64,000 bases of DNA from assembly GCA_964607805.1 (NCBI GenBank), contig CAZSLF010000003.1, forward strand, positions 3,190 through 67,189, read 5' to 3'. A program made the position numbers and the translations under genes. The notes below the pieces were generated by a model, which worked only from the letters and a program-made list of their open reading frames with translations, searched no databases and was not told where the DNA came from. Origin of the DNA: an uncultured Candidatus Saccharibacteria bacterium. GTDB lineage: Bacteria > Patescibacteriota > Minisyncoccia > Phycocordibacterales > CAIZLB01. Below, one piece after another: positions 33,036 through 47,497 of the stretch (position 1 is its first letter; the number at the start of each line of letters is the position of its first letter).

Positions 33036-35849
33036 TTGACCCATACCGTGAATCAGGAAATAACTCAGAAATATAAAAGAAATTTTAAACTTTTCAAGAA
33101 GTTATTTTTTGTTTTAGCTGTAGCGCCAATAATTCTAGCAGGATTAGTTTTTACTTTTTTACAAAAGAGTTATTCTCCACCGCCATATACAGGAACTTTG
33201 CCTTGTGTTAGTTATTCTCCAGATGACTTTAGTAGAGATAGGAACTTTTCTGAAGAAGAATTGATGGAAGTTTTGGTTAAAATAAAGAAAGTTAGTAATT
33301 GTGTGCGAATATATTCTGTGACTAGAGGAATTGAAAAAGTTCCAGAATTAGCAAAGAGGATGGAAATGGAAGTAATCGCAGGTGCCTGGCTTGTAAAATC
33401 AGAGCCAAAGATTAACGCAGAGGAATTAAAAAATCTAATCGAGATTGGCAGGGAATACGATAATATCAAATACCTTATTGTTGGAAATGAGACCGCTTTG
33501 CTAAATAATCTTAGTGAAGAAGAATTGATAAGGTCAATAAATATAGTTAGAGCGGGAGTGTATGGATCAAGGAATAAAAATGTTATTGCCAAACTGGCAA
33601 AAGAGAAAAAATATCCGCCAATCACAACAACAGAAATTGCTAGTGTTTGGGTTAATAAAAAAAGTGTCATAAATGAAATAGATGTAGTCGGTCTACACTC
33701 CTTCTCATATTGGGAATGGGCTCATATAGATGACGCTCTACCTACAATTTTAAATACTTTTGAAAGAGTTAGAAATGTTACAGATAAGCCGATCGTATTT
33801 CTAGAAACTGGGTGGCCAACTGCGGGGCCACCCCAAGGTTTAGCAGAAAGTGGGCTCCTGAGCCAGAGAAAATTCCTAAAAATGATGGATGAGAATTTTG
33901 GTGCGCAAGGAATATTTTATAATATTGCTGAGATGTTCGATGTGCCTGCAAAAGTTGCAAACGAAGAAGGTTTGCTCGGGCCACACTGGGGTATATTTGA
34001 TAAGAATGGAAATCAGAAGACCCTTTTAACAGTTAAGGATATTTCGCTTTGGTTCGCAATTTATATTCTGTTGATGGTAATTATGTTGTGGTATTTTTTG
34101 GGATATTTTGAGTATCCATTTATAAAAAATGACCCTAGGTATGAAAGAAGAAATGATTCCGGCTTAGACTCGTCACTTCTTGCTAGTTTTTTCATAATTA
34201 TAATCTTGGCTTGTGTTTTTTCTACTGTAACTATGCTGTATTCGAAGTTAATGGGTGTGAATATAATCATGGTGCAGATTTTGTGTGGATTAATTTCTTT
34301 GTATGGATTCTTTGAAATTTCTCAAAAGATCATGCAGAATTTTATTTCTAAACATGCAGCAAAATATTTATTGAGTAGATACTCGCAGGTTTCGGTTGAA
34401 GAAAAGAGTGCCAATACTGATGTTCTGGTTTCAATTCATATAGCAGCAAAAGATGAGGATCCTGAGCAGGTGATTCGTACGCTTACATCAGCCTTAGCGC
34501 AAACTCATAAAAAGATTGAGGTGGTTTATGTTGATAATAATTCTAAAGATGAAAATGGATTCAATATTGTTAAGAAACATTTTGATTCTCTTTCTGTGAC
34601 TGAAAAGTTCGGAGAGGATAAAGTTTTGAGCTTACACTTCGAGAAAAACATTTTTGGGTTTAAGGGTGGGGCACTAAATTATGCAATACATAAAAGTAAT
34701 CCTGATGCACAGTATATTGCCATATTGGATTCTGATTACGAGGCATATCCAAATTGGATAGAGACAGGGCTTATATATGCAAAGGACGATGTAGGGTTTA
34801 TTCAATTTCCTCAGTCGTATAGGGGAGGTGAAGATGACGCTCAAGGTGCTGTAAATAGTGAAGGGCGGAACACTGAGAATTTTATTTCAAGAGGTGCAAG
34901 ACTCGAGCAAGACTATGTATTTAAAGTTATGTACCCTATGCGAGCAATTTTAGGAAATATTGTTATGAATGGCACGATGGTAATAATCAGGAAGGCTGCG
35001 CTGCCTGAACATAATTGGCCACTATGGTCTATTTGTGAAGACGGGGCGCTCGGAGCTGAGATTATTGCTAAAGGGTATAGATCGGCCTTCGTACCTACTG
35101 TGGCAGGACAGGGTGGCTCACCTGAGACTTTTAGTGAGCTTTCGAAGCAAAGAAATCGATGGGTTTTTGGATCTATTCAAATATTGAAGATGTGGATGAA
35201 AGATAAGAAGCTAAAATGGAATAGGACTATGAGCATGTATCTGTCAGATTGGTTTGGGTGGATTATGCATGGTTTGTATCCATTTATCATAATATTCACA
35301 ATTAGTTTCATACTTTCGGTATGGTTTGTATATTTCTCAATAATTTATGATTGGACTTTCTTTTTAGGTTTAACTTTTATAGGACTATCTCTCATTCTCT
35401 TCATTATCAATATTGCTAAATATATTGGATGTGCTCTGCCAAAAGTTACCAAAGCGAATACAACTTTAAAGTTCGGTGACAAATTTAAGTTATGTATAAA
35501 AAATATTTTCTCACTCATATTGCTTGAGCTATCAGTTGTTAATATTGTTTGTGTATCAGTTCTGCAGTCTGTTTATAAAAATAAAATGAACTTCAATGCA
35601 ACGAGATCCCCTGAATATCATTCACACATGCTTAGATACGGTGCATCTGGTTACAAAAAATTTATTGGGGCAGTCACGAATTTACTTCTTATTGCACTAC
35701 CAGCAATTTTAGTTTTGTTCGCTTTATGTGGAAGTTATTTTATTCTTGAAAAGACAAGTTCAAATCTGGTCTATGTTGTTTATGGACAGTTTGTTGTGGT
35801 TTTCTTGCCACAACTTATTTACTTGATTTATAAGTTGAAGTATAAATAA
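33036..35849 (+). CDS. fused GH17 glucanosyl-hydrolase/transferase and family-2 processive glycosyltransferase (NdvB-like glucan synthase)
   Basis: GH17 motifs IVGNETAL and FLETGWPTAG. GT2 motifs ILDSDYE, QFPQSY, CEDGALG, QRNRWVFG (QxxRW). Multiple TM helices. TTG/GTG start. Confidence 0.8.
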   Translation: MTHTVNQEITQKYKRNFKLFKKLFFVLAVAPIILAGLVFTFLQKSYSPPPYTGTLPCVSYSPDDFSRDRNFSEEELMEVLVKIKKVSNCVRIYSVTRGIEKVPELAKRMEMEVIAGAWLVKSEPKINAEELKNLIEIGREYDNIKYLIVGNETALLNNLSEEELIRSINIVRAGVYGSRNKNVIAKLAKEKKYPPITTTEIASVWVNKKSVINEIDVVGLHSFSYWEWAHIDDALPTILNTFERVRNVTDKPIVFLETGWPTAGPPQGLAESGLLSQRKFLKMMDENFGAQGIFYNIAEMFDVPAKVANEEGLLGPHWGIFDKNGNQKTLLTVKDISLWFAIYILLMVIMLWYFLGYFEYPFIKNDPRYERRNDSGLDSSLLASFFIIIILACVFSTVTMLYSKLMGVNIIMVQILCGLISLYGFFEISQKIMQNFISKHAAKYLLSRYSQVSVEEKSANTDVLVSIHIAAKDEDPEQVIRTLTSALAQTHKKIEVVYVDNNSKDENGFNIVKKHFDSLSVTEKFGEDKVLSLHFEKNIFGFKGGALNYAIHKSNPDAQYIAILDSDYEAYPNWIETGLIYAKDDVGFIQFPQSYRGGEDDAQGAVNSEGRNTENFISRGARLEQDYVFKVMYPMRAILGNIVMNGTMVIIRKAALPEHNWPLWSICEDGALGAEIIAKGYRSAFVPTVAGQGGSPETFSELSKQRNRWVFGSIQILKMWMKDKKLKWNRTMSMYLSDWFGWIMHGLYPFIIIFTISFILSVWFVYFSIIYDWTFFLGLTFIGLSLILFIINIAKYIGCALPKVTKANTTLKFGDKFKLCIKNIFSLILLELSVVNIVCVSVLQSVYKNKMNFNATRSPEYHSHMLRYGASGYKKFIGAVTNLLLIALPAILVLFALCGSYFILEKTSSNLVYVVYGQFVVVFLPQLIYLIYKLKYK

Positions 35850-35897: not shown

Positions 35898-35968
35898 TGC
35901 GGGGAAGTGTAACAGTTGCATACAAGGCTCATAACCTTGAGGACTAGGTGCAATTCCTGGCTCCGCAA
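35898..35968 (+). tRNA. atypical tRNA-like gene with CAU anticodon (initiator-like ends)
   Basis: Acceptor TGCGGGG/CTCCGCA plus A. Anticodon arm CAAGG-CTCATAA-CCTTG. T arm CTAGG-TGCAATT-CCTGG. D arm poorly formed with no GG. Ends resemble fMet tRNA (..GCGGGG...CCGCAA). Confidence 0.45.
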
Positions 35969-36213: not shown

Positions 36214-36290
36214 GTCGACGTAGCTCAGTCGGTTAGAGCGGAGGACTCATAAGCCTCAGGTCGGTGGTTCGATCCCACCCGTCGACACCA
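36214..36290 (+). tRNA. tRNA with CAU anticodon (elongator Met or Ile2), CCA encoded
   Basis: GTCGACG-TA-GCTC-AGTCGGTTA-GAGC-G-GAGGA-CTCATAA-GCCTC-AGGTC-GGTGG-TTCGATC-CCACC-CGTCGAC-A-CCA. Confidence 0.9.
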
Positions 36291-37181: not shown

Positions 37182-37901
37182 ATGCCAATGCATAGAGAAA
37201 TTAATAGGGATTTTTTTAAAGTGTGGAGTGGGGACATGGCGTATGTCTTAGGTTTTATGTTTGCAGATGGAAATATTATTAAGAATAATAGAGGAGGGTA
37301 TTATTTTGCTATTTATACTGCGGATGAGGAGCTTTTAATAAGAATGAGAACTAGTATGGGGTCTAGTCATAAAATTTCATTTAAAATGGGAAAGTTAGGT
37401 GGTTGTTACTCGATTCAAATAGGAAGTAAGGAAATGTTTAATGATTTAGGTAAGGTAGGGCTTACTCCGAATAAGTCAAAGAGAATGATATTGCCTGAAG
37501 TTCCAAAAAAATATTTAGGTGATTTTGTGAGAGGGTATTTTGACGGCGATGGACATGTTTGGGTTGGGCAAATTAACAAAAATAGAGAGAAAACTCAAAT
37601 GACAATACTGACGGGTTTTACAAGTGGTTCTTTGAATTTTTTAATCTCCTTAAAAAATATCTTGAAATCAGCTGGTATACGCGGAGGATGTATATATAAA
37701 TGTAAAACTGGCGAATACGGAAGACTTTCATTTTCTGTATTCGACTCTTTGAGATTATATGAAATTATGTATAATAGGCCACATACCCTATATTTGGATC
37801 GTAAAAAGATGGTTTTTGATAAATATAGGGTATTGACAAAACGATGCGGCTGTAGCTCAACGGTAGAGCACTCGCCTGTAGACTGGCAGCTTTTAGCTTA
37901 A
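37182..37901 (+). CDS. LAGLIDADG homing endonuclease (double-motif)
   Basis: Motif 1 YVLGFMFADGNI and motif 2 LGDFVRGYFDGDGHV. The last ~18 codons read through tRNA-Asp exon 1 and the first 22 nt of the intron. Confidence 0.85.
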   Translation: MPMHREINRDFFKVWSGDMAYVLGFMFADGNIIKNNRGGYYFAIYTADEELLIRMRTSMGSSHKISFKMGKLGGCYSIQIGSKEMFNDLGKVGLTPNKSKRMILPEVPKKYLGDFVRGYFDGDGHVWVGQINKNREKTQMTILTGFTSGSLNFLISLKNILKSAGIRGGCIYKCKTGEYGRLSFSVFDSLRLYEIMYNRPHTLYLDRKKMVFDKYRVLTKRCGCSSTVEHSPVDWQLLA

Positions 37902-38910: not shown

Positions 38911-39267
38911 ATGAAAATCAAAGAAATCGCCTTTACTGTATATGCAGTAAATGACATGAAAAAAGCAAAGGAATTTTACGAAGGTGTTTTAGGTTTGGTT
39001 CCAGGTTCAGAATTTAATAGCGATACATGGACTGAATATGAAGTAGGGACAGGGATTTTTGCACTGGGATGCGCACCTGAACAATGGAAGACATCACCAG
39101 ACGGTGCATCAGTTGCATTTGAAGTAGAAGACTTTGAAGAAGCAGCGAAGAATCTAAAAGATGCTGGTGCGGAATTTAAAATTGAGCCATCTGAATTTCC
39201 AACTTGCCATATGGCGGTTGTAAAAGATCCGGACGGAAATCATGTTTTAATCCATAAGCGAAAATAG
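38911..39267 (+). CDS. VOC family (glyoxalase/bleomycin-resistance fold) protein
   Basis: 118 aa. IAFTVYAVNDMKKAKEFYEGVLGL ... VVKDPDGNHVLI pattern. Confidence 0.75.
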   Translation: MKIKEIAFTVYAVNDMKKAKEFYEGVLGLVPGSEFNSDTWTEYEVGTGIFALGCAPEQWKTSPDGASVAFEVEDFEEAAKNLKDAGAEFKIEPSEFPTCHMAVVKDPDGNHVLIHKRK

Positions 39268-39304: not shown

Positions 39305-40138
39305 ATGGATATACTGAGACTAATCCGAGTAAGAAGTTGGGTGAAAAATATATTTATTTTTGCGCCAATATTTTTTGGTGGATTTGTTTTTGATATCGGC
39401 TTACTGGCACAAACTTGTTTAGCTTTTGTCTTGTTCTGTTTTCTTTCAAGTTCAGTCTATATAATCAATGACATATTTGATTTAGAACAAGACAGAAAAC
39501 ATGAAAGTAAAAAGGGGAGACCTTTGGCATCGGGTAGAATTTCAGTTCCTGTAGCTGTGGCGATATGTGCCTCCCTTATTGTTTCAGTTTTTGTTATAGG
39601 AAGTATTTTTATCCCAGAAATTTTATGGATAATAGCCATATACTTCTTACTCAATATTCTGTATTCAAAGAAGCTTAAACATATTCCAATTGTAGATATA
39701 TTATGTATTTCACTATTCTTTCTTATAAGAATAATTGTTGGAGGAATTTCAGCCTCAGTCCATATTTCATATTGGTTAATGGTCTGCACGGTTTTCCTCG
39801 CACTATTCCTAATAGTCGGAAAAAGACTTGTTGAATTCACTCAAGAAGAGCGGCGGCCAGTACTCAAAATATACTCTATAGATTTTCTGAAGAATTTACT
39901 TATGCTTACCTCTGTACTTGTGATTGCGACATATAGTGTATATGCACTTGTTGTACTTGATTCACCCTGGGCAATTGCAAGCATCTTTTTTGTATTGCTA
40001 GGAATACTACGGTATCTATACTTGATATACACATCTAAAAAAGTTGAGTACCCTGAAAAAGTATTGCTTCAGGATGTTACAGTCTTTTCGAGTGTGGCAC
40101 TTTGGATGCTAACGATGTTTTATATTTTTTACTTTTAA
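39305..40138 (+). CDS. UbiA-family prenyltransferase, decaprenyl-phosphate phosphoribosyltransferase-like
   Basis: NDIFDLEQDRKHESKKGRPLASGRIS (NDxxDxxxD...K..RP.A.G) and about 8 TM helices. Confidence 0.8.
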   Translation: MDILRLIRVRSWVKNIFIFAPIFFGGFVFDIGLLAQTCLAFVLFCFLSSSVYIINDIFDLEQDRKHESKKGRPLASGRISVPVAVAICASLIVSVFVIGSIFIPEILWIIAIYFLLNILYSKKLKHIPIVDILCISLFFLIRIIVGGISASVHISYWLMVCTVFLALFLIVGKRLVEFTQEERRPVLKIYSIDFLKNLLMLTSVLVIATYSVYALVVLDSPWAIASIFFVLLGILRYLYLIYTSKKVEYPEKVLLQDVTVFSSVALWMLTMFYIFYF

Positions 40139-40187
40139 TTCACGCCAGAACGCCCATAGCTTATACTTATAATAACTATTAACCACT

Positions 40188-41222
40188 ATGAAATACTTAA
40201 TCACAGGCGGATCAGGATTTTTGGGAATAAATATGGCGAGACACTTACTTGCGAAAGGGCAGGAGGTTATTATTTTAGATAAAGAAAATTTTGATTACCC
40301 AGAACTTAGCAAAATAAAATTCGTAAAAGGAGATGTTAGAGATCCGGATTTAGTGGCTAGGGCGATGGAAGGAATCGATATTGTAATTCATACAGCAGCG
40401 GCCTTACCTTTATATTCTGAAGAAGAAATTATGACAACAGAAGTTGAAGGTACGAAACTTTTGCTCAAAACTGCTTACGAGAAAAAAGTTTCTCGATTTA
40501 TTCATATTTCATCAACTGCCGTATATGGAATTCCTGATCATCATCCACTCGTCGAGTCAGATAAATTAGATGGCGTTGGCCCATATGGTAAAGCAAAAAT
40601 TTTGGCGGAAAAAGCATGTGAAGAATATCGCGCTAAGGGTATGATCGTTCCATTGCTCCGGCCAAAATCTTTTGTGGGGCCGGAGCGCTTAGGAGTATTC
40701 GCTCTTTTTTATGATTGGGGAAAAGATGGAAAGAATTTCCCCATGATTGGAAATGGAAAAAACCGATATCAATTGCTCGATGTTGAAGACTTATGCGATG
40801 CAATATATTTAGCAGCAACTATCGATCCGAATCTGGCAAACGATACATTTAATATCGGTGCAAAAGAATTTTTAACAATGAGAGAGGATTACCAAGCGGT
40901 TTTGGATAGGGCGGGATTTGGCCGGAAAATTATAGGCTTGCCTGCCACTCCAATTATTTGGATACTGCGTCTGCTCGAGGCTTTGAAATTATCACCTCTC
41001 TACAAATGGGTCTATGAGACGGCCTCAAAAGACTCTTTTGTATCAATTGAGAAAGCTGAGCAGAAGTTGGGGTATAAGCCCAAATATTCGAATATACAGG
41101 CCTTGGTGCGCAATTATGAGTGGTATATAGATCATTTGGCTGAGTTTGAAGGTCAAAGCGGCGTGACGCATAGGGTTCCTTGGAAACAGGGTATACTTAA
41201 GGTGGCTAAAATATTTTTTTAA
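40188..41222 (+). CDS. NAD-dependent epimerase/dehydratase (extended SDR)
   Basis: ITGGSGFLG Rossmann motif and YGKAK catalytic Tyr-x3-Lys. Confidence 0.85.
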   Translation: MKYLITGGSGFLGINMARHLLAKGQEVIILDKENFDYPELSKIKFVKGDVRDPDLVARAMEGIDIVIHTAAALPLYSEEEIMTTEVEGTKLLLKTAYEKKVSRFIHISSTAVYGIPDHHPLVESDKLDGVGPYGKAKILAEKACEEYRAKGMIVPLLRPKSFVGPERLGVFALFYDWGKDGKNFPMIGNGKNRYQLLDVEDLCDAIYLAATIDPNLANDTFNIGAKEFLTMREDYQAVLDRAGFGRKIIGLPATPIIWILRLLEALKLSPLYKWVYETASKDSFVSIEKAEQKLGYKPKYSNIQALVRNYEWYIDHLAEFEGQSGVTHRVPWKQGILKVAKIFF

Positions 41223-41242
41223 TCACGTCCTAATCAAATTTT

Positions 41243-41611
41243 ATGGCATACATATATCTCATAATTTCTTTTACTTTAAATGGCATAGCAAACCTTATGC
41301 TACGCTATTCGGCTTTGAATGAACCCGAAATTCGAATGCGAGATATTGGATTTCAATTTATTACTGATCATCGTTGGTTGATTGCCGGATTATCAATTTT
41401 CGCAGGCAATGTTATTTTCTATATGCTCGCTTTGCGCCACTTACCAGTTTCTGTTGCATATCCTGTTATGGTTGCAATGAGTTTATTGATTGTAGCAACA
41501 GGCGCAAACTTTTTGTTTAAAGAAGCAGTGACAGGTACACAAATTGTTGGATATGTACTTTTGATAATAGCTATATATTTATTGACTGCTAAAAAGATCA
41601 CTTCGAACTAA
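41243..41611 (+). CDS. SMR/EamA-like four-helix small transporter (ArnE/ArnF-like)
   Basis: 122 aa with 4 TM helices. LRHLPVSVAYPVMVAMSLLIV resembles the lipid-linked-sugar flippase subunit pattern. Confidence 0.6.
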   Translation: MAYIYLIISFTLNGIANLMLRYSALNEPEIRMRDIGFQFITDHRWLIAGLSIFAGNVIFYMLALRHLPVSVAYPVMVAMSLLIVATGANFLFKEAVTGTQIVGYVLLIIAIYLLTAKKITSN

Positions 41612-41636
41612 ATAATTAAGTTAGATCCAAAATACT

Positions 41637-42134
41637 ATGTTGCCACAAGCGTATCCATTTTTTAAAGATTTAGATATATCAAGTCTTAAAAATAATATTA
41701 TTCTGCTTGATATAGATGGGACGCTCGTTTTTGATAATGGTCTGGAATTAGATGACATTACGATTCAGAAAGTTAAAGAATTGGCGCAGTCAAATAAAGT
41801 TTTTTTATGCTCGAATAGTAAAGACTTGAAACGAGATAAAAAATTTCAAGCAATACTTGGTGTTGGATCAGTGTCTGGAGTTTATAAAAAACCAAATAGA
41901 AAGATAAAAGATTTGGCTTTGGAAAAGTTTAATAAGCTGGAGGATGCAAAGCAAGGGTTAAACAAATCCGCTCCAATAGTTGTAATAGGTGACAAATCAA
42001 TTATAGATGGAAGGTTTGCCAAAAAGATTGGCGCTGAATTTATTAAAATCAGAGGTTTGTATTCTGGTCGTGAATCTATCTTTGTTCGTGTTTCTTATTT
42101 CGTAGATCGACTGTACAGTATATGCTGTAAATAA
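41637..42134 (+). CDS. HAD-superfamily phosphatase (YqeG/IIIA-like)
   Basis: Motif I ILLDIDGTLV, then CSNS, then a late VVIGDKSIIDG. Confidence 0.7.
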   Translation: MLPQAYPFFKDLDISSLKNNIILLDIDGTLVFDNGLELDDITIQKVKELAQSNKVFLCSNSKDLKRDKKFQAILGVGSVSGVYKKPNRKIKDLALEKFNKLEDAKQGLNKSAPIVVIGDKSIIDGRFAKKIGAEFIKIRGLYSGRESIFVRVSYFVDRLYSICCK

Positions 42135-44619
42135 GTAGGAAGAGGAATGAGATTAGAGTTGTATAATGTCCTGAAACAAAATCTTTTGAAGGAGGGAAAG
42201 TCATCGAAAGGGTGGTTGTTGATTTTAGATTTGATTGAGACACGGGAATTATTGTGAACCCCGGTGAAGCTAAATAACTTTTTTGCTGAACTGAATTAAC
42301 TTCCGGTATCCATCCAGGGTGAAAGCTTTGGCGAATGAAAACCCATTCAAATTCTGTATTGTTATTTGGATCTTTAACTGTATTGGAAATAGTACCAAGT
42401 TTATGTGGAAGACTGCTGAGACTAGGAAGTATGATTGAAGTATTTGTATTATTTCTCAATATGTCTTGTAGGGGAATTTCTTGAACTGTAGTTGTAGACA
42501 TGTCTCTGATTTTCTTGATAATAGGATCAAAAGGATATGTTTCTTTCTTAGTTTTAAAAGTAATAATTTTTGTTGGATATCTCGAATATCTTTTCTCAAG
42601 ATTTTCAAACGTTTTTGAATCGTCATCAAGGAGAAATATTACATGAGGGTTTTTATCATAATTTTTGAGTACTATATCAATATATTTTACAAGTTCCTCT
42701 TCTTTTTTATGCTTATAATTTGTAATAAGCGTAAATCTTGATTTTTTACTGAGTCGAACTAATTCATCCACATCGGCTGAGTCTACATAAACTGTAAATA
42801 AATTATTAAATATTCTATTTGTAAATATTGTTTCTTGAAAACGGCTGTAGTCAGGGTCACTAATTTTTCTATTTCTGAAGCCTGTATCACCAATAAATAA
42901 ACCAATATTACCTCGAATAATACTTGCAAAAGGGGCAGGATTATTTATCTCTGCAACAGTAAAACTAGGAGAAGGTTTTGTAATTGTGAAGAAATCAGGA
43001 TCACCAAAATTTACGAGGTTTTCTCTATTTTCAGTTGTTTTGTCTATCAAGACAAGAGTTTCTATGCCGAAGAATTTTAATAAATCCTGTTGAGTATGTA
43101 TTTGTATTGCACCGGATGTAATTGGCTGATAGAAATTGGTTAATCCCCAAGTATCTGGATGGGGACTGAGGGTGTTACGGGACATTCTAAAAAACATACT
43201 ATTTATGCTCGATTCAACTAAGTTTGAATATGCAGTTTTGCCTTCTAATCTTCCAATTTCAGCATCTAATATATCTTGAGTTGAGTCTAGTACATATGAT
43301 TGCACCATGGTCATCTTTTTAGATTCAGCGATAGTTTTGGCCAATGACGCAAGCTCGCCATCAGCATATTTTTTATATACATGTCCATCAAAATGATATG
43401 CGCTCATCTTCGGTACTAGAATATAATTTGCAACTGGCAGAATAAAAATTAAAAGTACTATTAATACGCCATTAATTTTAAAGTTACTTATAGTAATTCC
43501 ATTTTTAATAAATGAAATTAATGCAAAAACATAAGGGATCGTTAGCAAGAAAAAGAATGTTTCAAACCATCGGTGAAAATATATTGGCAATAAAATATCG
43601 ATTTCAAGAACCTGAGATACAAAATATAGCGAAATAGTTAAAATAGATATAAGAAATACTGAAGCTGATAGTCTAAATATGTATTTTCCATTATCATTTT
43701 TACAAAAATACGACAGATACAATCCATAAGCTGCGATAATAAGGTGGGGCCAAGTTTGCATGAGTAATTCAAGGCTGTTATACGGTGTAGCTTGAATTGA
43801 GCCAGAAAAATATGCATAAGATCCTAGCATTGGGATAATCCAGAAAGATGCTCCAAGTAGTCCGAATATATGAATAAAAAACGCTCTTTTGATATAGAAA
43901 AATATGTCTTGTCTCTTTTGGAAAAGAATTAATATTCCAGAAAGTGGTATACAACTTAGTGCAGTATGGATGCTACTGATATAGATCATTGCCCAACAAA
44001 GTGATCCTATAACAGCAAAAAATTTAGATCGGGAAATTATAGATAAAAGTGCTGGAATCAAAAATATCATGGAAATATTTTGTGCCAACATGGAATTGAA
44101 AAAAAGTGATCTTGATCCTGGTGAGCCGGTATTAATTCCAAGCATAATAGAAGCCCCTAAAATAATTGCTGTATATATTTTCCAATTTTGTTTGATATTT
44201 TGCTGAAGTCGGACGAGATCTGGAAATTCTTTTTTATAAATATACAAAAGCCAGATAAGAGTCGTGCTTGAGATAATCAAAAGTATTAGCCCTGATAATA
44301 ATTTATAAACAATTACTGAGTTATCAAGGAATAGATTAAAAAAACTACCAATAAGGTACATAAGAGGAGGGTAGAGAATAGGGAATGGCATCCCTGCCTG
44401 CCAATTTGATAACCACCCCCAAGTGCTGGGAAAATGACTCTTTGCATACACATCCATAATTGCTACATGTGCTGCCCCATCCCATCCTGAAATATTAGGC
44501 AAAGTGAAAAATAACTTAGTCAGATTGAGGTGAAAGAGGGTGGAGAGAAAGGATATGATTATGCCTCCTGCGAGAGCAAATAATCCTAGGGACAAATATT
44601 TTTTCATAGCAGTATTCAT
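42076..44619 (-). CDS. large polytopic membrane protein with C-terminal extracytoplasmic domain (putative GT-C-type glycosyltransferase)
   Basis: About 450 aa with more than 10 TM helices, followed by about 400 aa of soluble domain and a C-terminal TM. The upstream extension to 44778 is non-hydrophobic, so ATG 44619/44607 is preferred. The function call is contextual only. Confidence 0.45.
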   Translation of the reverse strand: MNTAMKKYLSLGLFALAGGIIISFLSTLFHLNLTKLFFTLPNISGWDGAAHVAIMDVYAKSHFPSTWGWLSNWQAGMPFPILYPPLMYLIGSFFNLFLDNSVIVYKLLSGLILLIISSTTLIWLLYIYKKEFPDLVRLQQNIKQNWKIYTAIILGASIMLGINTGSPGSRSLFFNSMLAQNISMIFLIPALLSIISRSKFFAVIGSLCWAMIYISSIHTALSCIPLSGILILFQKRQDIFFYIKRAFFIHIFGLLGASFWIIPMLGSYAYFSGSIQATPYNSLELLMQTWPHLIIAAYGLYLSYFCKNDNGKYIFRLSASVFLISILTISLYFVSQVLEIDILLPIYFHRWFETFFFLLTIPYVFALISFIKNGITISNFKINGVLIVLLIFILPVANYILVPKMSAYHFDGHVYKKYADGELASLAKTIAESKKMTMVQSYVLDSTQDILDAEIGRLEGKTAYSNLVESSINSMFFRMSRNTLSPHPDTWGLTNFYQPITSGAIQIHTQQDLLKFFGIETLVLIDKTTENRENLVNFGDPDFFTITKPSPSFTVAEINNPAPFASIIRGNIGLFIGDTGFRNRKISDPDYSRFQETIFTNRIFNNLFTVYVDSADVDELVRLSKKSRFTLITNYKHKKEEELVKYIDIVLKNYDKNPHVIFLLDDDSKTFENLEKRYSRYPTKIITFKTKKETYPFDPIIKKIRDMSTTTVQEIPLQDILRNNTNTSIILPSLSSLPHKLGTISNTVKDPNNNTEFEWVFIRQSFHPGWIPEVNSVQQKSYLASPGFTIIPVSQSNLKSTTTLSMTFPPSKDFVSGHYTTLISFLFLLIYSIYCTVDLRNKKHEQR

Positions 44620-44817
44620 GTCGGGATTCAAATAAGTAGAACAATTATAACATGCAATTATTGCTTGATTAGGTAGTGTGTTATGATGGTTTAAATATGG
44701 AAAATAACGATATAAATAAAGCTCCTCAGTCTCCAGAGACGCCAATCGCGCAGTCGGCTGTAAAATTCCGCCTCTCAAAAGCTTTTATAGCTTATGTTGT
44801 TATCAGCTTAATAATTA

Positions 44818-46287
44818 TTATTTCAGCTGTCCTGCTTCTTGTGAATTAAGGGGAAGACTTAGTTCAAATACTGTTTTGTACTTATTTGCGAGCTGCTTAT
44901 TCTGGCGAGAATTACTGACTTGATGGTTAATATGGTGGATATTATGATTACGAGGAATTAATCTGAGAGTGCCTTTAAAGTATTTTTCGGCAATATGTTT
45001 TGAAGCTGAAAGTCCATATCCACAGCCTCGTCCGTCTTTGGTTGTGAAGAAAGGGTTAAATATATTCTGAGCAATTTCGATAGGGATACCTAGGCCATTG
45101 TCCTTAATTGTTATGATAGCGTTTTTATTTTGTAAGACTAGGCTAATATAAATACTCGGATAATACTTATTATGGTTATTGGTCTGCGCTAAATTCTTTT
45201 TTGAATCTTCGACTGCATCGATAGCATTGCTGATCAAATTTGTAAGTATATGAGTGAGTAAAGAAGAGGAGTTGAAAAGTACTGGCCCAGAGAGCAAGTT
45301 GGTTTTTACCTCTATTTGATTCTTCATCAGCCTATGGCGGTGAATTAACAATGTTTCTTCGATAGTGTCTTTAACAGAAAACTCAGTTTCTTTTAGATTC
45401 ACTTGAATATGTTTTCTTGTAGATCCTATTATGTTTTGAATTTTTTGGCTTGTACTAATTAGGCTATTCATGGAAGTTTTAATAGCCGCATCAGCAGATT
45501 TTGGACTGGTTTCAATCTCGATACATAGCGCGTTCAAAGGGTTGATAAGATCATGAATTAAACCAGAAGAAAGTTTGCCAAATTCTATGAATTTATATAA
45601 TCCAGATATTTTCTCAATCTGCATCTGTTCAATTTGATTAGTTCTTTCAGCGACACGGATTTCAAGATTGTCTCGCTCTACACGTAATTCATCCTCTGAA
45701 TTTCTTGCTCTTTTAAGTGACAATTCTGTTTGTCTATTTGAAATCCAAGTGACTACAGACATGAACAGAATAAAGACACCGAATTCTATAGCATCGCTTA
45801 GTGAAGGAGAGTTATTCTGCCAACTGACGTCATGGGAAATAATATGCTTACTAGCAAGTATGCTACAAATTGCCATAAAAACAGAAATACATATTGCATA
45901 AATAAAGGCCGCACGACTATTTATGAGAATTCCCATAAGAATAGTCATGAGTGTTAAAGATAGGAGAGTGGCTGGAAGAAATACACTCCATACCAAAATT
46001 CCATAGACACTTCCAATCGTGAAGGTGGCAATAAATATTATAGAGGCAATATTGATACGTCTTGTTCTAGAAAAATAATAGGATGCCAGAATTGGGACAA
46101 AAGCGATAAGAAAATACGCAAATCCTATATAACTTTTGGCTAGAATTTCATGCTTGATAATCAGTAATTCAAATACAATTAGCAAAAACATACAAAACGC
46201 CAGCATGCTATTCAGGACTAATTCCTTTCTATGCGTATCGGGTTCTTGTGATAATGGCCCAAAGTATTTAATTATAAGATTTTTCAT
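44818..46287 (-). CDS. sensor histidine kinase
   Basis: 6 N-terminal TM helices. H-box SGLIHDLINPLNAL, N-box NLISNAIDA, G1 IKDNGLGIP, G2 GCGYGLS. Confidence 0.88.
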   Translation of the reverse strand: MKNLIIKYFGPLSQEPDTHRKELVLNSMLAFCMFLLIVFELLIIKHEILAKSYIGFAYFLIAFVPILASYYFSRTRRINIASIIFIATFTIGSVYGILVWSVFLPATLLSLTLMTILMGILINSRAAFIYAICISVFMAICSILASKHIISHDVSWQNNSPSLSDAIEFGVFILFMSVVTWISNRQTELSLKRARNSEDELRVERDNLEIRVAERTNQIEQMQIEKISGLYKFIEFGKLSSGLIHDLINPLNALCIEIETSPKSADAAIKTSMNSLISTSQKIQNIIGSTRKHIQVNLKETEFSVKDTIEETLLIHRHRLMKNQIEVKTNLLSGPVLFNSSSLLTHILTNLISNAIDAVEDSKKNLAQTNNHNKYYPSIYISLVLQNKNAIITIKDNGLGIPIEIAQNIFNPFFTTKDGRGCGYGLSASKHIAEKYFKGTLRLIPRNHNIHHINHQVSNSRQNKQLANKYKTVFELSLPLNSQEAGQLK

Positions 46288-46722
46288 TTTCTCAGGATTA
46301 TAGGATTCCTGTCGTGACGACTATATTTTACCTAATTTTTCTCAAAATTGCCCCCTAGTGGTCTCAATAGGTTTTGTAGCCTTTTTCTTAGAAAAGTGAG
46401 CAACCAGTTGTCGCCTGATTGCTCACTTAATTCACACTACTTCCAAGGTATATCCAATTTCTCGGCTATCTGGGCGTCTGTGAGTTCTATGGCAGTCTTT
46501 ATATTGCAACTACCATCCAATATTTTGCTTAGCATAAGATTTATAGAAGAAAATATTATTAATCAATTATGTACTCGCCAAACTTATGGAATACTCTGCG
46601 AGTACATAATTGTGCCTTTCGGCGTAGCCACTTTAACAATTCGTAGATTAAATTCTCATCAATTTTGGCTCAATTTTTTATGAATTTTTTGAGCTTACTT
46701 TTCGAAAAATTTACCAAATTTA

Positions 46723-47400
46723 TTACCTACCGTCAGGATCAACTTTATATCCACGTCCTGGAACAGTATGAATAACTCTTTTTGTATCACCAGCTTCAAC
46801 TTTCTTTCGGAGATTTCTGACATGAGCTTCGACGGTATTTGAAAAAGGATCCGTCTCACGATTCCAAACTTCTTCTAATAATTCTCCTCGCGAAACCACT
46901 TCACCTTTTCTTTTCATAAGGCTTTGCAGAATAAGAAATTCTTTGCGAGTTAGATATACTCTTTTTCCATCTTTCTTTACCTCGGTTCTACGAGGGTCAA
47001 GCGTAAGGTCGTCTATAGTCAAAACCTCATCTGAAATTTTATAAGTTCTTCTTGTTAACGCATGTACTCTCGCTCTAAATTCATTGTAGGTAAATGGTTT
47101 AACCAAGTAATCATCTGCGCCGCTTTCAAGAAGGGTCACTTTATCGTTTGGATCTCCTTTCACAGACATCATCATGATAGGGGAATTAATGCCCTTTGTT
47201 CTAATATCCTTCACGATTTCCAAGCCATCTTTCCCAGGAAGAACATAGTCAATTATTATGAGTTGATACTCATGAGTTCTAGCAATATATGAACCGTTTA
47301 CACCGTCTTCACTATGGTCGACCGTATAATATTCTGATTCAAGCCCGCGTTTCAGGGAAAGTCTCAAGTGTTCATCGTCCTCAATTATTAGTATTCTCAT
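46723..47400 (-). CDS. OmpR-family DNA-binding response regulator
   Basis: MRILIIEDDEHL receiver with a winged-helix output (LTRKEFLILQSL...VEAHVRNLRKK...IHTVPGRGYK). The start at 47400 is preferred over the track start 47478. Confidence 0.88.
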   Translation of the reverse strand: MRILIIEDDEHLRLSLKRGLESEYYTVDHSEDGVNGSYIARTHEYQLIIIDYVLPGKDGLEIVKDIRTKGINSPIMMMSVKGDPNDKVTLLESGADDYLVKPFTYNEFRARVHALTRRTYKISDEVLTIDDLTLDPRRTEVKKDGKRVYLTRKEFLILQSLMKRKGEVVSRGELLEEVWNRETDPFSNTVEAHVRNLRKKVEAGDTKRVIHTVPGRGYKVDPDGR

Positions 47401-47497
47401 AGCTGTTTCTTGATTATTGATAATGGATAATGGCTTATTTATATAATATTGTAGATGAAATAAAGATGAAGAAAGCATGAAGTAAATCTTAAAACTG

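What the first reader, a model, noticed from the sequence alone, without database searches (positions are those of the whole stretch)
39305..44619. UbiA-PRTase / SDR epimerase / SMR-type flippase / HAD phosphatase cluster facing a 848-aa polytopic protein: possible lipid-linked pentose glycosylation pathway
The UbiA-family protein carries the NDxxDxxxD...RP.A.G pattern of decaprenyl-phosphate 5-phosphoribosyltransferases. It is followed by an extended-SDR epimerase/reductase, a 4-TM SMR/ArnE-like protein and a HAD phosphatase. This is the logical enzyme set (PRPP transfer to polyprenyl-P, dephosphorylation, 2'-epimerisation, flipping) known from mycobacterial decaprenyl-phospho-arabinose synthesis, though built here with non-orthologous phosphatase and epimerase types. 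The convergent, 59-nt-overlapping gene (42076-44619) encodes more than 10 TM helices plus a large external domain, as in GT-C transferases that use such donors. An envelope glycan pathway of this kind in a reduced genome would be notable.
Basis: inference. Interest (0 to 1): 0.55.

Follow-up and report, generated by a model that had tools for sequence, protein, structure and literature searches.

The report
Lipid-linked pentose glycosylation gene cluster
A small uncultured (Parcubacteria-like) bacterium carries a five-gene set that most likely builds a ribose-derived sugar on a membrane lipid, flips it outward and attaches it to the cell surface; this kind of pathway was described in 2024, but here it uses an uncharacterised transferase family.

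Summary
In detail: all five ORFs exist at the stated coordinates, and the last two converge with a 59-nt overlap.

- **UbiA protein:** it belongs to the decaprenyl/polyprenyl-phosphate phosphoribosyltransferase clade, not the quinone or heme prenyltransferases. It keeps 9 of the 12 mapped PRPP/Mg contact residues of M. tuberculosis Rv3806c identically and 2 more conservatively.
- **847-aa protein:** no Pfam, NCBIfam or PDB sequence match. Its AlphaFold model (pLDDT 90.9) matches only GT-C glycosyltransferases, with AftD on top.
- **HAD:** homologous to the HAD domain fused to UbiA in other Patescibacteria.
- **SDR:** a family 61-73% identical across more than ten phyla. It recurs next to this type of UbiA with different phosphatases (HAD, PAP2, PHP) and different GT-C families.
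- **Related genomes, same position:** the GT-C sits beside this cassette, beside a polyprenyl-phosphate-sugar-synthase-like GT2, or alone. In one relative both GT-C and cassette are absent.

The logic equals the "three-component" pentofuranose systems of Kelly et al. 2024 (PMC11127046). There a GalE-like SDR makes xylofuranose, while arabinofuranose systems use DprE1/E2. The pathway reading is therefore supported, but 2'-epimerisation to arabinose is not established. This is a new member of a known kind, of moderate interest.

The parts
39305..40138 (+). Polyprenyl-phosphate 5-phosphoribosyltransferase (PPPRS/DPPRS-type UbiA family protein, 277 aa, 9 predicted TM)
   Evidence: - Pfam UbiA 90.7 bits.
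- The best NCBIfam models are all decaprenyl-phosphate phosphoribosyltransferase: 210.9, 194.3 and 137.1 bits. Each is below its equivalog cut-off (234, 207, 474).
- PDB 8j8j (Rv3806c) matches at E=2.5e-35 over residues 3-271.
- PRPP/Mg-site residues of Rv3806c (PMC10994848) map as follows: R22=R8, K28=K14, Y70=Y52, N73=N55, D77=D59, K87=K69, R90=R72, Q135->N117, Y138=Y120, K143=K125, Y157->F139, K208->P185.
40188..41222 (+). Extended SDR (GalE-like NAD-dependent epimerase/dehydratase family, 344 aa); proposed epimerase acting on polyprenyl-P-ribofuranose
   Evidence: - Pfam Epimerase 140 bits.
- Motifs TGGSGFLG at residue 6, SSTAVYG at 108 and YGKAK at 133.
- It has no Asp-Glu dehydratase pair at the SST position. 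This is read from the sequence, using my own knowledge of 4,6-dehydratases.
- The family is 61-73% identical in 80 loci from more than 10 phyla.
- A DPPRS-type UbiA lies within 10 kb in 18 of those 80 loci. It also lies beside the SDR in haloarchaeal and actinobacterial replicons.
41243..41611 (+). Small 4-TM DMT/SMR-superfamily protein (122 aa), ArnE/ArnF-like; proposed flippase of the lipid-linked pentose
   Evidence: - NCBIfam ArnF 40 bits (cut-off 99) and ArnE 26 bits.
- Pfam TMEM234, Multi_Drug_Res and EamA, all just below their cut-offs.
- 4 hydropathy TM segments.
- Homologues lie next to the SDR in Rhizobium sp. CCGE531 (L095, annotated 'SMR family transporter') and in a Verrucomicrobiota MAG (L049).
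- The flippase role is inferred only.
41637..42134 (+). HAD-IIIA (YqeG/PGP-phosphatase-like) phosphatase, 165 aa; proposed polyprenyl-P-ribose-5-phosphate 5'-phosphatase
   Evidence: - HAD motifs DIDGT (residue 25), CSNS (58), YKKP (83) and GDKSIIDG (118).
- NCBIfam YqeG 35 bits and HAD-IIIA 31 bits, both below their cut-offs.
- It is 32-35% identical (E=5e-21 and 6e-17) to the N-terminal HAD domain of 421-424-aa HAD-UbiA fusion proteins. These occur in Saccharibacteria and Zambryskibacteria.
- No similarity to the HAD domain of the proteobacterial fusion or to the Lactococcus HAD-IB.
42076..44619 (-). GT-C-fold glycosyltransferase of an uncharacterised family (847 aa): N-terminal polytopic domain, ~420-residue ectodomain, C-terminal TM helix
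   Evidence: - No Pfam, NCBIfam or PDB sequence match.
- A profile search finds 288 representative clusters, most about 750-870 aa.
- D47 in the first external loop is invariant in 60 sequences, as are W260, P263 and R350.
- 4 of 60 relatives touch Pfam PTPS_related.
- The AlphaFold model has pLDDT 90.9 and pTM 0.92.
- The Foldseek top 21 PDB matches are all GT-C enzymes: AftD 4.8e-8, STT3, AftA, AglB, PglB, DPY19, ArnT.
44818..47478 (-). Context only: OmpR-type response regulator (46723-47478), conserved 32-aa micro-ORF (46437-46535) and 6-TM histidine kinase (44818-46287), directly upstream of the GT-C on the same strand
   Evidence: - Pfam HATPase_c for the kinase.
- The RR-HK-GT-C order is kept in every related locus that carries the GT-C.
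- The two-component system persists in L100, where the GT-C and the cassette are both absent. It is therefore not dependent on them.
- A regulatory link is not shown.

Best explanation
The locus most likely encodes an extracytoplasmic pentofuranose glycosylation system, in five steps.

1. The UbiA-family enzyme transfers 5-phosphoribose from PRPP to a polyprenyl phosphate on the cytoplasmic face. The family assignment and active-site conservation are shown. The activity is inferred.
2. The HAD-IIIA phosphatase removes the 5'-phosphate. This is inferred. It is supported by fusion of the same HAD domain to UbiA in related bacteria.
3. The GalE-like extended SDR, using bound NAD, epimerises the lipid-linked ribofuranose through a keto intermediate. 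Epimerisation at C3 would give xylofuranose. Epimerisation at C2 would give arabinofuranose. The step is inferred and the sugar is unresolved.
4. A dimer of the 4-TM ArnE/F-like protein flips the lipid-linked sugar to the outer face (inferred).
5. The 847-aa GT-C enzyme transfers the pentofuranose to an unknown envelope acceptor, with invariant D47 in its first external loop as the likely catalytic base. The fold and residue conservation are shown. The activity, the donor and the acceptor are inferred.
For: **UbiA.** It falls in the DPPRS clade by NCBIfam and by PDB. Of the 12 mapped PRPP/Mg contact residues of Rv3806c, 9 are identical and 2 are conservative substitutions (Q135->N, Y157->F). 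These include the phosphoribose contacts, which PMC10994848 says are not conserved in ordinary UbiA prenyltransferases.

**GT-C fold.** Model pLDDT is 90.9 and the 21 best PDB matches are all GT-C enzymes. D47, W260, P263 and R350 are invariant.

**HAD.** The HAD-UbiA fusion in 5 Patescibacteria loci links the phosphatase to UbiA.

**A recurring UbiA + SDR core with interchangeable partners.**
- Patescibacteria cassette: DUF2079-like, HAD-UbiA, SDR, PMT_2-like GT-C. It occurs in L051, L054, L060, L070 and L084.
- Cassette UbiA, 2x PMT_2 GT-C, SDR, PAP2, DUF2298. It is shared by Gammaproteobacteria, Methanoperedens and Shapirobacteria MAGs.
- Haloarchaeal set: PHP, DPPRS, SDR, 2x GT-C.
- Rhizobium CCGE531 set with SDR, SMR and HAD-UbiA. 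This system is listed in the SI of Kelly et al..

**Experimental precedent for every step (PMC11127046).** ORF15 is a HAD-PPPRS and ORF14 a 4-TM EmrE/ArnE-like protein. ORF13 is a GalE-like SDR that turns Ribf into Xylf, and ORF12 is a GT-C.

**Behaviour at the same genomic position within the lineage.**
- The GT-C lies next to the cassette in the window, L007, L004 and L005 (GT-C 43-77% identical to the window protein).
- It lies next to an orthologous ~250-aa GT2 in L001, L097 and L098 (GT-C 28-35% identical). That GT2's best NCBIfam matches are polyprenyl-phosphate-sugar synthases such as PgfS, PpgS, AglJ and ArnC.
- It stands alone in L101.
- Both the GT-C and the cassette are absent in L100.

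No other GT-C-like protein and no DprE1, DprE2 or PAP2 homologue is present in the 64-kb window.
Against: - No biochemical data exist for any of these five proteins.
- The UbiA scores fall just below NCBI's equivalog cut-offs. The 4-TM protein and the HAD are below every curated cut-off.
- Linkage between this GT-C family and the cassette is seen in only four closely related loci. None of the 80 SDR loci elsewhere carries this GT-C family.
- Distant members of the GT-C family have uninformative neighbourhoods.
- In 60 of the 80 SDR loci no UbiA-superfamily gene lies within 10 kb. In the Ignavibacteriota locus examined (L039) the SDR sits among ribosomal-protein genes. Some of the 80 loci are short contigs, though.
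- In L004 the SMR and HAD genes are not adjacent.
- Which carbon is epimerised, and even whether the SDR is an epimerase, could not be tested.
Confidence: 0.75

Rival explanations
1. The adjacency is coincidental. The cassette makes a lipid-linked pentose for another transferase encoded elsewhere in the genome. The 847-aa GT-C uses a different donor, for example a polyprenyl-P-hexose, and belongs functionally with the two-component system upstream.
For: - The GT-C always follows RR-HK on the same strand, whether or not the cassette is present.
- Three relatives pair it with a GT2 instead, and one has it alone.
- This GT-C family never accompanies the SDR or UbiA outside this lineage.
- The region after the kinase is clearly variable.
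Against: - The GT-Cs next to the cassette are all 43-77% identical to the window protein. Those next to a GT2, or alone, are only 27-35% identical. This fits a change of donor.
- The GT-C and the cassette are absent together in L100.
- No other GT-C candidate lies in the 64-kb window.
- In all other cassette types a GT-C is encoded beside UbiA and the SDR.
- The genes converge tightly, with a 59-nt overlap here and 86 nt in L007.
Confidence: 0.12
2. The pathway is as proposed, but the SDR is not an epimerase of the lipid-linked sugar. In that case the donor is plain polyprenyl-P-ribofuranose, or a keto or otherwise modified pentose. Alternatively the SDR acts on another lipid or nucleotide sugar.
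For: - The best PDB sequence match is a dTDP-glucose 4,6-dehydratase (1r6d, 4e-27).
- The best NCBIfam match is the hopanoid-associated HpnA, over the N-terminal half only.
- The same SDR family stands alone, without UbiA nearby, in most Ignavibacteria, Kiritimatiellae and Lentisphaerae loci.
Against: - The SDR is the component most tightly linked to DPPRS-type UbiA across bacteria and archaea.
- It has the GalE-type S-Y-K site and lacks the dehydratase acid/base pair (the second point rests on my knowledge of dehydratases).
- A GalE-like SDR in the same genetic context has been shown to convert the Ribf donor to Xylf (PMC11127046).
- None of the loci that hold both UbiA and this SDR holds a DprE1/E2 homologue. 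This fits the SDR filling the epimerase slot.
Confidence: 0.1
3. The UbiA protein is an ordinary prenyltransferase (quinone, heme O or archaeal-type lipid synthesis), and the neighbours are unrelated housekeeping genes.
For: It matches the general Pfam UbiA model, and it falls below the equivalog cut-offs of the DPPRS models.
Against: - DPPRS models score 137-211 bits, against 30 bits or less for the UbiA, CyoE, ChlG, EboC and GGGP models.
- Rv3806c matches at E=2.5e-35 over the full length, with the PRPP-specific residues kept.
- The neighbours recur with this UbiA clade in many phyla.
Confidence: 0.02

Closest known systems
Three-component pentofuranose side-chain glycosylation system of Citrobacter youngae O1/O2 (ORF12-ORF15; Kelly et al., PNAS 2024, PMC11127046)
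   Same: - A UbiA-type polyprenyl-phosphate phosphoribosyltransferase with a HAD phosphatase.
- A 4-TM EmrE/ArnE-like putative flippase.
- A GalE-like SDR with TGxxGxxG and YxxxK motifs as an auxiliary epimerase.
- A GT-C transferase with an extra extracytoplasmic domain.
- The paper's SI already notes variants with a separate phosphatase and with SMR-type transporters.
   Different: - The HAD is a separate gene here, and it belongs to another HAD subfamily (IIIA/YqeG-like). It shows no BLAST similarity to the proteobacterial fusion's HAD.
- The GT-C belongs to a different, uncharacterised sequence family. hhalign gave no match to the GT-C candidate of the Rhizobium system listed by Kelly et al..
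- The host is a Patescibacteria MAG, not a Gram-negative with O antigen, so the acceptor is unknown.
- Orthology of the SDR to ORF13 could not be tested.
Mycobacterial decaprenyl-phospho-arabinose pathway (Rv3806c, Rv3807c, DprE1/DprE2, Rv3789; Emb/Aft GT-C enzymes)
   Same: - The first enzyme is homologous, with its PRPP site conserved.
- The sequence of steps is the same: transfer, dephosphorylation, epimerisation, flipping, GT-C transfer.
- The best structural match of the GT-C is AftD, and AftA is also among the top hits.
   Different: - The phosphatase is a HAD, not a PAP2.
- There is no FAD-dependent DprE1 and no classical-SDR DprE2 in the window. A single extended SDR is present instead.
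- The flippase candidate is ArnE/F-like, not the Rv3789 type.
- The product sugar is unknown.
- There is no sequence similarity to the Emb or Aft proteins.
Und-P-sugar modification systems: ArnC/ArnE-ArnF/ArnT (lipid A Ara4N) and GtrA/GtrB/GtrC (O-antigen glucosylation)
   Same: - The three-part logic is the same: a lipid-linked monosaccharide donor, a small flippase and a GT-C.
- The 4-TM protein's best curated matches are ArnF and ArnE.
- ArnT is among the structural matches of the GT-C.
- Relatives of this GT-C sit next to a GT2 of the ArnC/GtrB/PpgS/PgfS type.
   Different: In the window the donor is made from PRPP by a UbiA-type enzyme, not from a nucleotide sugar by a GT2.
Pseudomonas aeruginosa pilin D-arabinofuranosylation (PPPRS, DprE1/E2 homologues and a GT-C), as summarised in PMC11127046
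   Same: A polyprenyl-phosphate phosphoribosyltransferase supplies a GT-C outside the Actinobacteria.
   Different: It uses DprE1/E2-type epimerisation, and the acceptor is pilin. Nothing here points to pilin.

Membership tests
DPPRS/PPPRS clade of the UbiA superfamily (polyprenyl-phosphate 5-phosphoribosyltransferases, Rv3806c type) | UbiA fold with about 9 TM helices, a first Asp-rich motif NDxxDxxxD, and a second cytoplasmic-loop motif | tested here: met
   Pfam UbiA 90.7 bits. 9 hydropathy TM segments. N55 D56 D59 D63 are present, and K173 R174 ... E182 R183 align to K191 R192 ... E200 R201 of Rv3806c.
DPPRS/PPPRS clade of the UbiA superfamily (polyprenyl-phosphate 5-phosphoribosyltransferases, Rv3806c type) | Residues that bind the phosphoribose and pyrophosphate of PRPP in Rv3806c: R22, K28, Y70, N73, D77, K87, R90, Q135, Y138, K143, Y157, K208 (PMC10994848) | tested here: met
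   9 residues are identical. 2 are conservative (Q135->N117; Y157->F139, and Phe also occurs in some mycobacteria). 1 is not conserved (K208->P185).
DPPRS/PPPRS clade of the UbiA superfamily (polyprenyl-phosphate 5-phosphoribosyltransferases, Rv3806c type) | Score above the curated NCBIfam equivalog cut-off | tested here: not met
   210.9 against 234, 194.3 against 207, and 137.1 against 474. The protein is closest to this clade, but it is not an equivalog by NCBI's thresholds.
DPPRS/PPPRS clade of the UbiA superfamily (polyprenyl-phosphate 5-phosphoribosyltransferases, Rv3806c type) | PRPP-dependent phosphoribosyl transfer to polyprenyl phosphate | not testable with these tools
   This needs an enzyme assay.
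Three-component pentofuranose glycosylation systems (Kelly et al. 2024) | PPPRS plus a phosphoribose 5'-phosphatase encoded together | tested here: met
   UbiA and HAD lie in one gene set. The same HAD domain is fused to UbiA in L051, L054, L060, L070 and L084. The HAD subfamily differs from the proteobacterial PRP domain.
Three-component pentofuranose glycosylation systems (Kelly et al. 2024) | A small multi-TM transporter (EmrE/ArnE-like, or GtrA or SMR type) encoded in the set | tested here: met
   122 aa with 4 TM segments. ArnF and ArnE are the best curated matches, below their cut-offs. Flipping itself is untested, as it also is in the prototype.
Three-component pentofuranose glycosylation systems (Kelly et al. 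2024) | A GT-C-fold transferase encoded in the set | tested here: met
   High-confidence model. The 21 best PDB matches are all GT-C enzymes.
Three-component pentofuranose glycosylation systems (Kelly et al. 2024) | The auxiliary epimerase is an orthologue of C. youngae O2 ORF13 (which would imply xylofuranose) | not testable with these tools
   The ORF13 sequence (MH325884.1) is not in any collection I could reach, and the SI alignment is stored as an image. Only the shared GalE-type motifs could be checked.
CAZy GT136 (C. youngae ORF12 family) | Sequence similarity to ORF12-type GT-C proteins | tested here: inconclusive
   No true GT136 sequence was available. hhalign of the 60-sequence profile found nothing against two proxies (probability below 2%). 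The proxies were the 658-aa GT-C candidate of the Rhizobium CCGE531 system listed by Kelly et al. and the Lactococcus 533-aa neighbour.
GT-C fold glycosyltransferases | A polytopic N-terminal domain, a first extracytoplasmic loop carrying a conserved acidic residue, and structural similarity to solved GT-C enzymes | tested here: met
   At least 10 TM segments. D47 in the GWDG motif after TM1 is invariant in 60 sequences. Structural matches are AftD 4.8e-8, STT3 3.7e-6, AftA 4.2e-5, AglB, PglB, DPY19 and ArnT.
GT-C fold glycosyltransferases | Membership of a curated GT-C sequence family (Pfam or NCBIfam) | tested here: not met
   No Pfam or NCBIfam match for the window protein. Only 4 of 60 relatives reach PF10131 PTPS_related, best E=3e-6. 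That PF10131 belongs to the GT-C clan is my recollection; I did not check it here.
Mycobacterial DPA pathway (membership as an orthologous pathway) | DprE1 (FAD oxidase) + DprE2 (classical SDR) epimerase pair and a PAP2 phosphatase | tested here: not met
   tblastn of a DprE1, a DprE2 and a PAP2 taken from related cassettes finds nothing in the window.

The most novel reading that the evidence does not exclude
The extended SDR belongs to a very strongly conserved family: 61-73% identical from Patescibacteria to Ignavibacteria, Verrucomicrobia, Gammaproteobacteria and Methanoperedens, and about 50% identical in haloarchaea. This family may be a single-protein epimerase of polyprenyl-P-ribofuranose. 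It could form the core of a widespread, still uncharacterised pentofuranose glycosylation route. That route might include a DprE1/E2-independent way to lipid-linked arabinofuranose.

In this Parcubacteria lineage the route would feed a new GT-C family. That family's orthologues appear to have switched between a hexose donor (made by a GT2) and a pentofuranose donor (made by the UbiA cassette).
Probability: 0.3. Interest if true: 0.6.

Novelty: new member of a known kind. Interest (0 to 1): 0.38.

Why it matters
- **Patescibacteria surfaces.** These bacteria are ultrasmall, mostly uncultured, and thought to live attached to other cells. Their surface chemistry is almost unknown. In the paper library I found no paper linking them to lipid-linked pentofuranose donors.
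- **Concrete predictions.** The locus predicts a pentofuranose-decorated surface molecule and gives five testable enzymes.
- **Two wider leads.**
  - An uncharacterised GT-C family of about 290 representative clusters. Its orthologues appear to have swapped donor-synthesis modules.
  - An unusually conserved SDR that travels with DPPRS-type UbiA across bacteria and archaea. It may define the sugar made.
- **Limit.** The pathway logic itself was published in 2024, so this extends known biology rather than overturning it.

Tried and rejected
1. **Sequence searches of the 847-aa protein.** Pfam, NCBIfam and PDB gave nothing. Only the structure prediction was informative.
2. **Ectodomain.** A separate model of residues 405-811 (pLDDT 83.7) had no meaningful PDB match (TM-scores about 0.2). 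The one exception was a 99-residue beta-sandwch match to AftD. The acceptor therefore cannot be guessed from it.
3. **Link to GT136.** hhalign of the GT-C profile against the putative GT-C of the Rhizobium and Lactococcus systems found no relation.
4. **Reaching ORF13 and ORF12 of C. youngae.**
   - The SI alignments are stored as images.
   - A blastn of a gammaproteobacterial SDR gene against E. coli genomes found nothing.
   - The phage collection gave one unannotated hit to UbiA.
5. **Neighbourhoods of distant GT-C family members (P0006, P0007).** They hold no donor genes.
6. **Promoter and terminator scan.** It found no more sites than in shuffled sequence.
7. **Database names.** The window proteins carry none.
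8. **Neighbouring genes considered and rejected as parts.**
   - The glyoxalase gene (38911-39267) stays in place in relatives that lack the cassette.
   - The Metallophos gene next to UbiA in L004 also occurs in loci without UbiA.
9. **Correction to my notes.** They gave 22-24 SDR loci with a UbiA nearby. The recount is 18 strong hits plus 2 weak ones, out of 80.

Full report
**1. What is in the sequence**

One search confirms four closely spaced + strand ORFs:
- UbiA, 39305-40138
- SDR, 40188-41222
- a 122-aa membrane protein, 41243-41611
- HAD, 41637-42134

The gaps between them are 49, 20 and 25 nt. A large convergent ORF ends at 42076 and overlaps the HAD gene by 59 nt. From the ATG at 44619 it encodes 847 residues. 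The ORF can be extended to a TTG at 44778 (900 aa, as in the database entry P0001), but homologues start at the shorter position.

The window is about 32-43% G+C throughout, with no compositional break at the cluster. Named relatives of the adjacent BipA/TypA protein are Parcubacteria, Taylorbacteria, Paceibacterota and 'Patescibacteria group' MAGs. The host is therefore a Patescibacteria (CPR) bacterium.

**2. The UbiA protein**

- Pfam sees only the general UbiA family.
- The three best NCBIfam models are all decaprenyl-phosphate phosphoribosyltransferase (211, 194 and 137 bits). Quinone, heme, chlorophyll and GGGP prenyltransferase models score 30 bits or less. The scores fall just short of NCBI's equivalog cut-offs.
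- Against the PDB, the M. tuberculosis enzyme Rv3806c (8j8j) matches at E=2.5e-35 over the full length. The next structure matches at 5.5e-7.
- I mapped the residues that the structure paper identifies as contacts of Mg2+, ribose, 5'-phosphate and pyrophosphate (PMC10994848). Nine of twelve are identical, two are conservative and one is lost.
- That paper states that the phosphoribose-binding positions are not conserved in ordinary UbiA enzymes. Their presence here is therefore specific evidence for a PRPP-using enzyme.

**3. The large protein**

- It has no Pfam, NCBIfam or PDB sequence match. It has only four close homologues among 5.8 billion proteins.
- A profile of these five sequences finds 288 representative clusters at E<=0.001. 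Most are full-length proteins of about 750-870 aa.
- In a 60-sequence alignment, D47 (motif GWDG, just after the first TM helix), F63, P64, G68, G76, Y83, W260, P263, R350 and W770 are invariant.
- Four of the 60 members touch Pfam PTPS_related.
- AlphaFold with this alignment gives pLDDT 90.9 and pTM 0.92.
- The 21 best Foldseek matches in the PDB are all GT-C glycosyltransferases. They are AftD (4.8e-8), yeast and human STT3, AftA, AglB, PglB, DPY19 and ArnT.
- The positively charged N-terminus and C-terminal tail place the first loop (with D47) and the ~420-residue domain outside the cell. This is inferred from the positive-inside rule.
- The ectodomain modelled alone has no informative structural match.

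**4. The three smaller proteins**

*SDR.* It has the GalE-type NAD motif (TGGSGFLG) and an S...YxxxK catalytic site. Its PDB sequence matches are dTDP-glucose 4,6-dehydratases and UDP-glucose 4-epimerases.

*122-aa protein.* It has four TM segments. Its best curated matches are ArnF and ArnE, all below their cut-offs.

*HAD.* It has all four HAD motifs and resembles the IIIA/YqeG and PGP-phosphatase subfamilies.

**5. Comparative evidence for a functional unit**

(a) *The SDR family.* A scan of one genome per species found 533 relatives. The best 80 are 61-73% identical to the window protein. They come from Ignavibacteria, Kiritimatiellae, Lentisphaerae, Verrucomicrobia, Saccharibacteria, Zambryskibacteria, Shapirobacteria, Omnitrophica, KSB1, Spirochaetales, Gammaproteobacteria and Methanoperedens.

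(b) *Pairing with UbiA.*
- In 18 of these 80 loci a DPPRS-type UbiA lies within 10 kb, usually directly adjacent.
- Among replicons in the plasmid collection, the best SDR matches are haloarchaeal (49-52% identical) and actinobacterial (42%). By coordinates, UbiA lies next to the SDR in Natronococcus AD-5, Haloterrigena, Halostagnicola and Nonomuraea. It lies 3.4 kb away in Natronococcus CG52.

(c) *HAD-UbiA fusion.* Five Patescibacteria loci encode a 421-424-aa fusion followed by the SDR. The window's free-standing HAD is 32-35% identical to that HAD domain. This gene-fusion link ties the phosphatase to the transferase.

(d) *Interchangeable partners around the UbiA + SDR core.*
- Patescibacteria cassette: a DUF2079-like protein and a PMT_2-like GT-C.
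- A cassette shared by gammaproteobacterial, Methanoperedens and Shapirobacteria MAGs: two PMT_2 GT-Cs, a PAP2 phosphatase and a DUF2298 protein.
- Haloterrigena: a PHP-domain protein and two GT-C genes.
- Rhizobium sp. CCGE531: an SMR transporter and a HAD-UbiA fusion.

The phosphatase step is thus filled by unrelated families and the GT-C varies, while UbiA and the SDR stay.

(e) *Other cassette types.* DprE1/DprE2-type genes accompany UbiA in a Flammeovirgaceae plasmid. They occur in none of the loci that carry this SDR, and not in the window. A Lactococcus plasmid shows the epimerase-free form: GT-C candidate, DPPRS, HAD-IB and GtrA.

**6. The GT-C and its neighbours within the lineage**

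All related contigs share the order BipA, response regulator, 32-aa ORF, histidine kinase. What follows the kinase varies.

| Locus | GT-C identity to window | What lies next to the GT-C |
|---|---|---|
| window | - | UbiA, SDR, SMR, HAD |
| L007 | 77% | UbiA, SDR, SMR, HAD |
| L005 | 46% | HAD (convergent), then the contig ends |
| L004 | 43% | SDR, UbiA |
| L001 | 35% | ~250-aa GT2 |
| L097 | 29% | ~250-aa GT2 |
| L098 | 28% | ~250-aa GT2 |
| L101 | 27% | none |
| L100 (BipA 92% identical, the closest relative) | GT-C absent | cassette also absent |

- The three GT2 proteins are 43-49% identical to each other.
- Their best NCBIfam matches are PgfS, PpgS, AglJ, dolichyl-phosphate hexose transferase and ArnC. 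All of these make polyprenyl-phosphate sugars, and all the scores are far below the cut-offs.
- Cassette-linked GT-Cs are therefore all 43% or more identical to the window protein, and the others 35% or less.
- I read this as one GT-C lineage whose donor-synthesis module was exchanged. It is circumstantial but coherent evidence that the GT-C uses the product of its neighbours.

**7. Comparison with what is known**

The closest described system is that of Kelly et al. 2024 (PMC11127046).
- In C. youngae, ORF15 is a HAD phosphatase fused to a UbiA-type polyprenyl-phosphoribose synthase. It makes undecaprenyl-P-ribofuranose from PRPP.
- ORF14 is a 4-TM EmrE/ArnE-like protein, the presumed flippase.
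- In serotype O2, ORF13 is a GalE-like SDR that alone converts the donor to xylofuranose.
- The authors report that Xylf systems carry an ORF13 homologue and Araf systems carry DprE1/E2 homologues. Their SI lists variants with a separate phosphatase and with SMR-type transporters.

The window locus fits this scheme component by component. It differs in three respects:
- the HAD subfamily;
- the GT-C sequence family (with weak proxies for GT136);
- the host.

The mycobacterial arabinan pathway shares the first enzyme and the overall logic. It does not share the phosphatase, the epimerase or the flippase types.

**8. What remains open**

- **The sugar.** By analogy with ORF13, xylofuranose is at least as likely as arabinofuranose. 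I could not obtain ORF13 to test orthology.
- **The acceptor.** It is unknown.
- **The stand-alone SDR.** The family occurs without a nearby UbiA in most Ignavibacteria-type loci. Either the partner gene lies elsewhere or the family has a further role.
- **Regulation.** A role for the upstream two-component system is not shown. The system persists where the GT-C is absent.

**9. Verdict**

The locus is a new member of a recently described kind of system, in a phylum where it has not been reported in the papers I could search. Its transferase belongs to an uncharacterised GT-C family. The interest is moderate.

Noticed in passing
window 46437-46535 (-): A conserved 32-aa micro-ORF (MLSKILDGSCNIKTAIELTDAQIAEKLDIPWK) lies between the response regulator and the histidine kinase. 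Homologous 32-aa genes were called at the same position in L001, L004 and L098, ending in [IL]PW[KQ]. It could be a signalling or regulatory peptide of the two-component system.
   Followed up: partly
window 40188-41222 (+) and loci L015-L094: The SDR family is unusually conserved: 61-73% identity across more than 10 bacterial phyla and Methanoperedens. In most loci from Ignavibacteria, Kiritimatiellae, Lentisphaerae and Verrucomicrobia there is no UbiA within 10 kb. In the one locus examined in detail (L039) it sits among ribosomal-protein and EF-Ts genes. It also has a hydrophobic stretch at residues 248-266 and a conserved amphipathic C-terminus.
   Followed up: partly
L082, L083, L085, L089, L091, L092, L093: A six-gene cassette (UbiA, two PMT_2 GT-Cs, SDR, PAP2, DUF2298) is shared at 42-80% protein identity between uncultured Gammaproteobacteria, a Methanoperedens archaeon and Shapirobacteria MAGs. 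This suggests horizontal transfer between domains, or mis-binned contigs.
   Followed up: partly
window 33036-35849 (+): A 937-aa protein with about 10 TM segments. It has a processive-type GT2 domain and a weak N-terminal GH17-like match, so it may be a membrane-bound glucan synthase. A 933-aa homologue sits at the same relative position in L007.
   Followed up: no
window 28129-32217 (+): A 1362-aa predicted surface protein with Ig/cadherin-like domains, an S59 autopeptidase-like stretch and three PG_binding_1 domains.
   Followed up: no
window 37182-37901 (+): A free-standing LAGLIDADG-type ORF (239 aa) lies downstream of the tRNA genes at 35898-35968 and 36214-36287. Similar ORFs are present in L007 and L100.
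   Followed up: no
L004 8817-9485, L100 14542-15195, L101 17024-17650, L098 8263-8850, L097 5902-6660: A family of ~200-aa single-TM secreted proteins with a conserved Cys-containing C-terminal domain (PWAVLEDSRCPIDVQCIQAGRVRV) flanks the variable region in relatives. No homologue was noticed in the window region studied.
   Followed up: no
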